A stretch of DNA of 64,000 nucleotides from the NCBI RefSeq assembly GCF_044324875.1, contig NZ_CP172185.1; one strand, written 5' to 3'. Source of the DNA: Escherichia coli. Its GTDB lineage: Bacteria; Pseudomonadota; Gammaproteobacteria; Enterobacterales; Enterobacteriaceae. A program made the position numbers. Positions 61,301 to 64,000 of the stretch are shown here, in pieces; the stretch's first letter is position 1, and each line of letters opens with the position of its first letter.

Positions 61301-64000
61301 GATGAGGAAACCCGGGAATACACCTCATCCTCTGTGGAGTATCTGGCCCTGGGGGTGGGTACCCCGGCACATTCATGCGCCGATGCCCCGCCAGAGGCAA
61401 TGCCGGGTTACGTGATTTGCCGGACGTCCACGCTGGACGGGTGGGAGTATGTCCCCGATCATCGTGGAGAGACGGTATACAGCACAGAGAACGGTAATCC
61501 GGTCCAGATTACCCAACCAGGTGACTACCCGGAAGGGACAACGACAAAACAGCCTGCCACACCATGGGATACCTGGAACGGTGAGGCGTGGGTAACCGAT
61601 ACAGAACGGCAGCAAGCCGAAGAGCTGGAGGTTGCCAGACAGCAACGCCAGGAACGGGTGGATCAGGCGATGAAGTCCATCGACCTCATCAACCTTAAGT
61701 TGCGGGCAGGTCGCAGTCTGACACCAGAAGAAACGGCAAAACTGAATGCCGTGCTGGATTATATCGACGAGCTGAACGCACTGGATATCAGCACGGGGCC
61801 TGAAATAACCTGGCCGGAAACACCACCAGGAATGGAATGAGCGGGGAAAAGGAACGGGCATTCATAAATAATTCATCATGCAGGTGCCGCAAGAATGCGG
61901 CACATTACCTTCACATCAGATCATTTACGCCGCTTACTGTGGTATTCCAGACCGAACTTAACTTCCCTTTCATTCCCGAAAGCATATCAGACACCGGCGA
62001 CGAGGCCATACTCTCCCGCAAATCCTCATCACAGCGTTCCAGACTGACAGTGAACTCAATTTTTTTGGCCTTACCGTGGCGGTCAAGTTCGCTTCGCGTT
62101 GTGCGGACAGCCGTTATCACATACATGCCGTATATCTGCCCCACACCGTCAATCAGCGGCCATGGGCGACCAGTGTAAGCCTGCGTCGTTAAAAGGCTGA
62201 GGGAAACCTCACCGCCGGTAATTTCGGGATAAAGCACACCGGACAACGTGATCTGGTCGTCACCCGCCCCGATATACTGCCAGCTGGCCGAACGATTGAT
62301 GCGTTCATTTTTAACGTGGCGCCAGGTTTTATTATGTTGCAGTTGTTGATGAGGCAGCGTACGCAACTCAAAAACAAACATGCCGTAAATCATCATCATG
62401 CGAGGTACTCCTAATCTCTGTCACGGAAACTACCGACTGTCTGGCGGATACGGCGTTCCATTTCCGCACGGACGGCATCACCCACCATTTTTGCCAGTTC
62501 GCGCGGGTTTTGCGTGTGAACATCATGCAGGTGAATATGCAGTTCGCCAGTTAATCCCCATGGTGCCGGATCACTCTGACGCGGTCGGGGCGATGCGGGG
62601 GATATGGGCTGGCGTACAGCCTCAACCACCGGACGGGATGTTGCCGTTACGACGGGTGTCATTACCGGCGCAATATTGCCGGACACGACCGGTTTAATTA
62701 CCGGGGAGAGCGTCGGTATAACATCGCCAGCCATAACCGGTTTGATCGCTGGCGAAATAACCGGAGCAACAGACTCAGCCATGACGGAACTGACAGGCTG
62801 AGGCGCTCTCACTATGCCAGCATCGATAACCAGCATGAGCTCGCGTACTGCCTCAAGGACAGGACGGGATATTGCCGCCATCACTGGTGTCATTAGCGGG
62901 GAGAACGTCGGCATGACATCGTGAGTCATAACCGGTTTGATCACCGGCGAAACCACTGGCGTAATATTACCGGACAGTACCGGACGGACGACCGGAGGAA
63001 TAACCGGCACATTATTCACGGACACCACCGGCTTCACGACCGGCGACACGTTCGCCGTGGTGGATATCAGCGGCGAAACACTGACAGGCGGTGGCGCTGG
63101 CAGCGGTGGCAACGAAGGCACACTGACCGACGGCACCTGCGGCAGTCTGACAGGTGGCTCACTGACACTACCCGGTAACAGGGAAGCTGCGCGGTTAAAG
63201 CGTTCCTCCTTCCACTCACCACGAACGGCCAGCGCTTCCGGCAGGTTTTTAAAGATAATATCGCCGGGACCAGTGCGTTTTTTCGCCTGTTTCGCCTCAT
63301 CCAGCAGGCCACCGGTGTTATCGACGATTTTATTCAGGCGACGCATGGTGCCGGTATTCTCCCCCGTCAGCGGAGCAGTTGCTGCAGGTGCAGGTACTGG
63401 CGGCTTTTTGTCTTTGTCATTTTGCGGCGGATTAATGACATTAACATCCGCCAGGAGCATGGCGGCTTTCTCGTTCAGCAGCTCCTTCTGCTTCAGCTCT
63501 TCCGCCTTTTTCCGGGCGCGCTCAACCGCCGACGGAATCAGCCCGAGTTTTTCCAGCACCCGGGTTAACGAGTCAACCAGCAGCGTGACCGGACCGGTCA
63601 CCAGATTGCTGATAAACTCCCCGACCTTCTGCCCGAACGTCCGCCCGGCTTCCGTGCACTTGTCCAGCTCATCCTTTGTTGTGCTTACCGGCGCGAACAG
63701 GTCCACGAACCACTGCCACACACGCCCGATTGTCTGCCCGACGTACTCAAATATCGGTCCCAGCGGTGCCACAGCCTCGCGCAGTGGCGTAAGCCCCTGC
63801 CACAGGCCGGACAGATACCCACCCACGACAGCCTTCAGCTGGTCCCAGTGCCGCCAGATAAGCACTGCCGCACCGACCAGTGCCGCCACCACGAGGCCCA
63901 CCGGACTTAACAGAAAACCCAGCGCCCCGCCAAGTGCGCCCACCGCACCACTCACCATTCCCCACAGCGCAGGCAGACCTGACAGTCTGAGCGCCAGCAT

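What the first reader, a model, noticed from the sequence alone, without database searches (positions are those of the whole stretch)
61841..64000. Tail genes U and T lie inverted and convergent on fibre genes H-G; no gene D follows U
In the canonical P2 map the FI-FII-E-T-U-D operon is co-directional with V-W-J-I-H-G. Here U and T are on the opposite strand, separated from G by a 70-bp gap containing a bidirectional terminator hairpin, and the slot where D would follow U is occupied by G. This suggests an inversion of the FI-to-U segment, or recombination between two P2-like prophages, which may affect late gene expression or viability.
Basis: partly seen in the sequence, partly recalled or inferred. 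Interest (0 to 1): 0.45.

Follow-up and report, generated by a model that had tools for sequence, protein, structure and literature searches.

The report
Normal gene order of P88-like P2 phages
The tail genes U and T do lie back-to-front against the fibre genes H-G, but this is the standard, working gene order of a whole recognised branch of P2-like phages, with gene D sitting just beyond the inverted block, so the finding is ordinary.

Summary
G ends at 61840. U (61911-62399) and the C-terminal 529 codons of tape-measure gene T (62411-64000) are on the minus strand. The 70-bp gap holds an 8-bp GC-rich hairpin (61884-61903), and no D follows U.

It is not an aberration. A prophage 99.85% identical over the last 14.6 kb of the window (L100) shows what lies past 64 kb: T, E, FII and FI on the minus strand, then D and ogr on the plus strand, divergent from FI.

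The same order (ogr< D< | FI> FII> E> T> U> | <G <H <I <J <W <V) is found in phage P88 (Xuanwuvirus), phiT5282H (Novemvirus), ST16-OXA48phi5.4 (Reipivirus) and Kp4872-3 (Reginaelenavirus). It is also found in all 75 of the 80 closest IMG/VR contigs that show a gene on the relevant side of U, bar one anomalous contig. P2, Fels-2, ENT90, Gegevirus and Elveevirus keep the collinear order.

P88 is inducible, forms plaques and has normal tails. The exact U protein occurs in 3692 blocks of the assembly collection.

The D-FI intergenic region carries a conserved Ogr-type dyad with the same geometry as the P/O divergent late promoter, which would explain how D is expressed on its own. Interest is low.

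The parts
59349..61229 (+). Tail fibre gene H (626 aa), with 168-bp tandem repeats inside it
   Evidence: phrog_988/381 E<1e-170; Pfam Phage_tail_fib, Phage_fiber_2 and Collar on the identical protein; tandem repeats at 59886-60583
61229..61840 (+). Tail fibre assembly gene G (203 aa), last gene of the rightward O-to-G late block
   Evidence: phrog_105 E=1.6e-87; PF02413 Caudo_TAP on the homologue
61841..61910 (.). 70-bp convergent intergenic gap between the stop codons of G and U
   Evidence: read directly from the sequence
61884..61903 (.). GC-rich hairpin (8-bp stem, AGAA loop) 7 nt past the U stop codon. Probably a transcript-end or terminator element for one or both convergent operons, but it has no T-run
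   Evidence: fold; not called by the terminator scan; most relatives have a strong hairpin at the same place, often with A/T runs
61911..62399 (-). Tail gene U (162 aa), last gene of the leftward FI-FII-E-E'-T-U operon
   Evidence: phrog_76 E=3.4e-71; PF06995; 80% identical to P88 gp44 and 42% to P2 gpU over the full alignment
62411..64000 (-). C-terminal 529 codons of tape-measure gene T, cut by the window end (full length 1173 aa in the near-identical L100)
   Evidence: tape-measure PHROGs; PF10145 PhageMin_Tail on the homologues; 99.85% identity to L100
50829..50852 (.). Ogr-type activator dyad TGTTGT-N12-ACAACA in the divergent P/O late-promoter region. The only copy of this motif in the window, and the template for interpreting the D-FI intergenic region that lies beyond the window

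Best explanation
The window ends inside an ordinary, apparently intact P2-like (Peduoviridae) prophage of the P88-like lineage. In this lineage the late tail genes form three units. The first is a rightward block from O to G, which includes R-S-V-W-J-I-H-G. The second is a leftward FI-FII-E-E'-T-U operon that converges on G. The third is a rightward D-ogr unit that diverges from FI. Compared with P2, one ancestral inversion flipped exactly the segment from the FI promoter to the end of U.

This order is shown directly. It is seen in the window, in a 99.85%-identical prophage that extends past the window end, in four ICTV genera and in dozens of viral contigs.

The way it works is inferred. The inversion placed the dyad-symmetric Ogr activator site of the F promoter next to the start of D. 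One site in the ~160-bp D-FI intergenic region would then drive both the FI-U operon and D from divergent late promoters, as the single P/O site does in P2. The hairpin in the 70-bp G-U gap would mark the ends of the two convergent transcripts.
For: (1) Gene identities.
(2) What lies beyond 64 kb: L100 matches the window at 99.85% with no gaps over its last 14,652 nt. It continues with T (1173 aa), E, FII and FI on the minus strand, then D (PF05954, phrog_52 E=2e-152) and ogr (PF04606) on the plus strand. L010, L101 and L005-L009 show the same.
(3) Lineage norm: P88 and P88_4B11 (Xuanwuvirus), phiT5282H (Novemvirus), ST16-OXA48phi5.4 (Reipivirus) and Kp4872-3 (Reginaelenavirus) all have ogr< D< FI> FII> U> <I <J <W <V.
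(4) Survey of the 80 IMG/VR contigs whose U is 59-100% identical. In 43 the baseplate genes lie downstream of U on the opposite strand and D lies upstream on the opposite strand. In 26 D is opposite and the contig ends before the baseplate genes. In 6 the baseplate genes are opposite and the contig ends before D. Four are too short to say. One (L064) is anomalous. None is collinear.
(5) Contrast: P2, Fels-2, Gegevirus, ENT90 and Elveevirus, whose U is no more than 50% identical by tblastn, are collinear with D directly after U.
(6) Viability: P88 forms plaques, has a burst of about 65 and shows contractile tails by EM; PhiSM is spontaneously active; the exact U protein is listed in 3692 blocks of the assembly collection.
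(7) Promoter: the motif TGTTGT-N12-A(C/G)A(A/C)C is the one invariant block of 60 distinct D-FI intergenic sequences. It occurs exactly once in the 64-kb window, at the P/O intergenic region. It lies in the D-FI intergenic region of all six inverted-type loci scanned; it is the only copy in five of them, and L096 has one further copy. The dyad centre lies 75.5 nt from the D ATG and 85.5 nt from the FI ATG (L100). In the window it lies 74.5 nt from the P ATG and 80.5 nt from the O ATG. In P2 the annotated P/O activator site is 56 and 55 nt from the two mapped start sites.
Against: The window itself stops inside T, so FI, D and ogr of this very copy are inferred from near-identical relatives rather than read. 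No transcription data were available: the divergent D/FI promoters and their Ogr dependence rest on motif conservation and spacing only. In the window-type phage the dyad is imperfect (TGT-N12-AGA in L010 and L100; perfect in L005). The G-U hairpin lacks a T-run, so its role as a terminator is unproven. 'Single ancestral inversion' rests on the match between gene order and U identity, with the cut-off between 50% and 58.6%; no full phylogeny was built.
Confidence: 0.9

Rival explanations
1. A recent, strain-specific inversion of FI-U, or recombination between two P2-like prophages, that separated D from its operon and may cripple the prophage.
For: The order differs from the textbook P2 map. 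Some copies in other genomes are visibly rearranged or deleted elsewhere: L003 and L004 and L064.
Against: The identical junction (the same 70-bp G-U gap) and the identical order occur in every independent assembly inspected and in four classified phage genera. Plaque-forming phages have this order. No inverted repeats flank the inverted block. D and ogr are present and intact just beyond FI.
Confidence: 0.02
2. An assembly artefact: a mis-join placing a tail-gene contig in the wrong orientation.
For: None specific. It was considered because the feature lies at the window edge.
Against: The same junction is present at 99-100% identity in contigs of 5.1 to 5.5 Mb, including CP-series chromosome records, and in other contigs from unrelated assemblies, and in isolated phage genomes.
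Confidence: 0.01
3. The order is lineage-typical, but D is expressed by some other route than a shared bidirectional Ogr site. Candidates are a separate constitutive promoter, read-through, or a second unrecognised activator site. The conserved dyad would then serve FI only.
For: Only one dyad is seen, and its D-proximal half is degenerate in many members. In P2, ogr has its own promoter downstream of D.
Against: The dyad's distances to the two start codons mirror those at the P/O region, where one site serves both directions in P2. -10-like hexamers lie 43-48 nt either side of the dyad centre; this is my own reading.
Confidence: 0.2

Closest known systems
Escherichia phage P88 and relatives (genus Xuanwuvirus, Peduoviridae), including Citrobacter phage PhiSM
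   Same: Identical order and orientation of V-W-J-I-H-G, the convergent U-T-E'-E-FII-FI block, and divergent D-ogr. U is 80% identical. The dyad in the D-FI intergenic region is conserved.
   Different: P88 carries a DNA invertase and an invertible alternative fibre cassette between G and U, whereas the window has only 70 bp there. P88 has an M15-peptidase endolysin where the window phage has a lysozyme-family one. A megablast of window 59300-64000 found no P88 DNA match, only fibre-gene matches to two other E. coli phages. The window phage is therefore probably not in the same genus by nucleotide identity.
Enterobacter phage phiT5282H (Novemvirus), Klebsiella phage ST16-OXA48phi5.4 (Reipivirus), Klebsiella phage Kp4872-3 (Reginaelenavirus)
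   Same: Same inverted FI-U block with D-ogr beyond it.
   Different: U is only 59-68% identical. Different cargo sits at the G-U junction, for example DUF262 genes in ST16-OXA48phi5.4.
Bacteriophage P2 (Peduovirus) and Fels-2 (Felsduovirus)
   Same: Same gene set (Q P O N M L X lysis R S V W J I H G FI FII E E' T U D ogr int), and the same Ogr-type TGT-N12-ACA late-promoter logic with a divergent P/O pair.
   Different: FI-U is collinear with V-G, and D overlaps the end of U in one F operon. P2 has a separate V promoter and orf30 between S and V, whereas here S and V overlap.

Membership tests
P2-like phages (Peduoviridae) tail module | Homologues of gpU, tape measure gpT, fibre gpH and fibre chaperone gpG | tested here: met
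   PHROG hits; Pfam PF06995, PF10145 and PF02413 on identical or near-identical proteins
P2-like phages (Peduoviridae) tail module | Sheath FI, tube FII, E/E', D and the Ogr activator present in the same element | tested here: inconclusive
   These lie beyond the window end. They are present in the 99.85%-identical L100 and in L010 and L101, but were not read in this copy.
P88-like gene order (Xuanwuvirus, Novemvirus, Reipivirus, Reginaelenavirus) | The FI-to-U block lies on the strand opposite V-G and converges on the fibre genes | tested here: met
   U and T are on the minus strand against G on the plus strand. The same holds in all four genera.
P88-like gene order (Xuanwuvirus, Novemvirus, Reipivirus, Reginaelenavirus) | D-ogr lies beyond FI, divergent from it, on the V-G strand | tested here: inconclusive
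   Outside the window. Met in L100 (99.85% identical) and in every relative in which D was found.
Genus Xuanwuvirus specifically | High genome-wide nucleotide identity to P88. From memory, the ICTV genus demarcation is about 70%. | tested here: not met
   A megablast of window 59300-64000 returned no P88 match, and U is only 80% identical at the protein level. Whole-genome identity was not computed.
Intrinsic (rho-independent) bidirectional terminator | GC-rich stem-loop | tested here: met
   8-bp stem with 6 G-C pairs at 61884-61903
Intrinsic (rho-independent) bidirectional terminator | A U-run directly after the stem on each transcribed strand | tested here: not met
   No T-run on either side, and the scan did not call it. 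P88 and many relatives do have A-run/stem/T-run terminators at this position.
Ogr/Delta-dependent P2 late promoter | TGT-N12-ACA dyad about 55 nt upstream of the start site, plus an ogr gene in the element | tested here: inconclusive
   The dyad is present at the window's P/O region (50829-50852) and, in relatives, in the D-FI region with matching spacing. ogr (PF04606) is present in relatives. Start sites cannot be tested with these tools.

The most novel reading that the evidence does not exclude
The inversion is a single ancient event that defines a clade of at least four Peduoviridae genera. It was tolerated, or favoured, because the palindromic Ogr site of the F promoter became a bidirectional promoter. 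That turned D into its own late transcription unit and created a convergent G|U junction, which serves as a cargo-insertion hotspot in place of P2's Z/fun locus. No paper in the searched library describes this.
Probability: 0.5. Interest if true: 0.2.

Novelty: already known. Interest (0 to 1): 0.08.

Why it matters
It matters little beyond annotation. The result shows that the P2 map should not be used as the only template when judging whether P2-like prophages are intact. A large, common lineage has the FI-U operon inverted and D-ogr as a separate unit, and a scan that flags this as damage would misclassify thousands of functional prophages. The conserved dyad in the D-FI intergenic region is a small, testable example of how an operon inversion can be absorbed by a symmetric activator site.

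Tried and rejected
(1) I looked for inverted repeats at the two inversion boundaries, G/U and FI/D, in L010 and P88 as traces of the recombination event. Only chance-level pairs turned up, none joining the two boundaries.

(2) An Rfam scan of 61000-64000 at E<=1 gave no RNA family.

(3) The intrinsic-terminator scan did not call the G-U hairpin.

(4) I tried to identify the host species with two genome-contig scans. The hairpin 30-mer gave no hit. A 32-mer from glsA hit only a contig labelled Arthrobacter, which matches the window at 85% over 111 bp, so it is uninformative. The host stays unidentified beyond 'enterobacterial': GC is 56-57%, the flanks carry fetB and glsA, and the related contigs are 5.1-5.5 Mb.

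(5) Literature searches for an explicit description of the inversion found none (one search failed on a term that was too short). The P88 paper describes only 'similar functional modules'.

(6) A strict TGT-N12-ACA search in L010 missed the D-FI site because its distal half is AGA. It was recovered with the alignment-derived motif.

Full report
**What is in the sequence.** Window 36.3-64 kb is a P2-like prophage. An integrase (36345-37388, minus) lies next to host glsA. It is followed by a 829-aa ORF in the position of replication gene A, and by Q and P on the minus strand. Then come O N M L X, lysis genes, R S V W J I H G on the plus strand. G (tail fibre assembly) stops at 61840. On the minus strand, U (162 aa) occupies 62399->61911, and a tape-measure ORF runs from the window end down to 62411. 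The G-U gap is exactly 70 bp. It contains the hairpin GTGCCGCA-AGAA-TGCGGCAC at 61884-61903, which folds better than 198 of 200 shuffles. No T-run follows the stem on either strand, and the terminator scan does not call it.

**What lies beyond the window.**
- The exact H protein of the window is encoded on a contig (L100) that matches the last 14,652 nt of the window at 99.85% with no gaps, and continues for another 7 kb.
- There T is 1173 aa and is followed on the same minus strand by E, FII (tube) and FI (sheath). After a 160-bp gap, D (PF05954; phrog_52, E=2e-152) and ogr (PF04606) lie on the plus strand.
- The exact U protein is listed in 3692 blocks of the assembly collection. All eight places displayed, several on contigs of 5.1 to 5.5 Mb, show FI-FII-E-T-U on one strand with ogr beyond FI on the other. 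G follows U on the opposite strand in all eight. A D gene is called in six, and tblastn finds D on the opposite strand in all eight.
- D is therefore not lost. It sits at the far side of the inverted block.

**Is this the norm somewhere?** Yes.
- The closest isolated phages by U (80% identity) are Escherichia phage P88 and its relatives, genus Xuanwuvirus. Their annotated maps read V W J I H G (plus an invertible fibre cassette and a DNA invertase), then U T E' E FII FI on the other strand, then D and ogr on the first strand.
- The same order holds in Enterobacter phage phiT5282H (Novemvirus), Klebsiella phage ST16-OXA48phi5.4 (Reipivirus) and Klebsiella phage Kp4872-3 (Reginaelenavirus).
- I fetched the 80 IMG/VR contigs whose U is most similar (59-100% identity) and placed V, W, J, I, FI, FII, U, D and ogr on each by tblastn. 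In 43 the baseplate genes lie downstream of U on the opposite strand and D lies upstream on the opposite strand. In 26 D is opposite and the contig ends before the baseplate genes. In 6 the baseplate genes are opposite and the contig ends before D. Four are too short. One (L064) is odd. None has the P2 order.
- By contrast, P2, Fels-2, Klebsiella phage ST437-OXA245phi4.1 (Gegevirus), Erwinia phage ENT90 and Kp4877-1 (Elveevirus) are collinear, with D directly after U. Their U proteins are at most 50% identical to the window's by tblastn.
- Gene order thus tracks U similarity, with the switch between 50% and 58.6% identity. I read this as one old inversion that defines a clade (inference; no tree was built). 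No inverted repeats remain at the two breakpoints, which fits an old event.

[quoted passage not shown] PhiSM of Citrobacter rodentium, 76.8% identical to P88, is described as a fully functional and spontaneously active temperate phage (PMC6456863). The arrangement is therefore compatible with full late gene expression and infectivity.

**How D is probably expressed (inferred).**
- In P2, D is the last gene of the F operon and overlaps U. The late promoters depend on Ogr binding a TGT-N12-ACA dyad about 55 nt upstream, and a single site serves the divergent P and O promoters (annotation).
- In the window, the P/O intergenic region carries TGTTGT-CGGCATTCGCTT-ACAACA at 50829-50852.
- In an alignment of 60 distinct D-FI intergenic sequences from the relatives, the one invariant block is TTGTTGT followed 12 nt later by A(C/G)A(A/C)C.
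- This motif occurs once in the whole 64-kb window, at the P/O region. It lies in the D-FI gap of all six inverted-type loci tested. It is the only copy in five of them; L096 has a second copy elsewhere.
- It is a perfect dyad in L005 and imperfect (AGA for ACA) in L010 and L100.
- Its centre lies 75.5 nt from the D start codon and 85.5 nt from the FI start codon in L100. In the window it lies 74.5 nt from the P start codon and 80.5 nt from the O start codon.
- The -10-like hexamers AATGAT (FI side) and AAACAT (D side) lie 43-48 nt either side of the centre; this is my own reading.
- The simplest model is that the inversion carried the symmetric F-promoter activator site to the doorstep of D, where it now works in both directions. 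No start sites were mapped, so this remains a model.

**The G-U junction.** In most relatives a strong GC-rich hairpin follows U directly, often with an A-run before the stem and a T-run after it, a classic two-way terminator as in P88. The window type has a shorter stem without T-runs. The junction also varies in content: 70-160 bp in some phages, an invertase and alternative fibre cassette in P88, and DUF262-type cargo in ST16-OXA48phi5.4. It appears to play the cargo-slot role that the Z/fun locus between G and FI plays in P2. That comparison is an inference.

**Verdict.** Interest is low. The only mildly new points are the clade-wide consistency of the inversion and the conserved bidirectional-looking Ogr site, neither of which I found described in the searchable literature.

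Noticed in passing
window 8071-33500: A giant 6875-aa ORF (11409-32036, minus strand). A TolC-family outer-membrane gene lies on one side (32145-33500; TIGR01844, E=7e-124). Two ORFs of 720 and 391 aa lie on the other side (9243-11405 and 8071-9246), in the positions expected for the ABC and membrane-fusion components of a type I secretion system. Only the TolC gene was checked.
   Followed up: partly
window 59886-60583 (inside H): Tandem repeats of 168 and 300 bp inside the tail fibre gene, 91-97% identical. H length differs among otherwise near-identical prophages: 626, 744 and 756 aa. This suggests repeat-number variation in the fibre shaft.
   Followed up: partly
window 62600-63100 (inside T); L005, L010, L100, L101: The tape-measure protein has a proline/valine-rich repeated region. 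Its length varies among close relatives: 1103, 1173 and 1238 aa. Window-to-relative alignments break at about 62669-62836. If the tape measure sets tail length, these phages would differ in tail length.
   Followed up: no
window 56323-57542: S (56323-56964) overlaps V (56961-57542). There is no orf30-type gene, no terminator and no second Ogr dyad between them, and the TGTTGT-N12 motif occurs only once in the window. Unlike P2, O-to-G may therefore be one long late operon.
   Followed up: partly
window 36065-37388 versus L010 1-2000, L100 21280-21881 and L101 21705-21881: In the window the integrase end of the prophage abuts glsA. In L010 the ogr end of a 99%-identical tail module abuts pheT-ihfA-hicAB. 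L101 also has hicB beyond ogr, and L100 has a YafO-toxin gene there. Closely related prophages seem to sit at different chromosomal sites or carry different end cargo.
   Followed up: no
L003, L004, L008: Some chromosomal copies carrying the identical U protein are rearranged elsewhere. In L003, G is followed by a 96-aa fragment, a resolvase and then replication gene A. In L004, J is followed directly by terminase P. L008 has an extra 96-aa ORF between H and G. These look like decayed or recombined prophages.
   Followed up: no
L064 (IMGVR_UViG_2648501916_000004): The only surveyed contig in which an I homologue lies on the same strand as U and no D was detected. It may be a further rearrangement or a contig problem.
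   Followed up: no
L095 (NZ_JAJJOE010000008.1, labelled Arthrobacter sp. zg-Y769): An exact 32-nt match to the window's glsA gene in a genome labelled Arthrobacter. The surrounding match is only 85% over 111 bp. It is probably a conserved glutaminase motif and gives no clue to the host.
   Followed up: partly
L001 747-887, L002 5003-5143, L004-L009 about 1590-1820: A hok/gef-family (MokW-like) toxin gene lies a few hundred bases past ogr in P88-type phages and in many of the chromosomal relatives. It looks like a conserved cargo gene at the ogr end.
   Followed up: no
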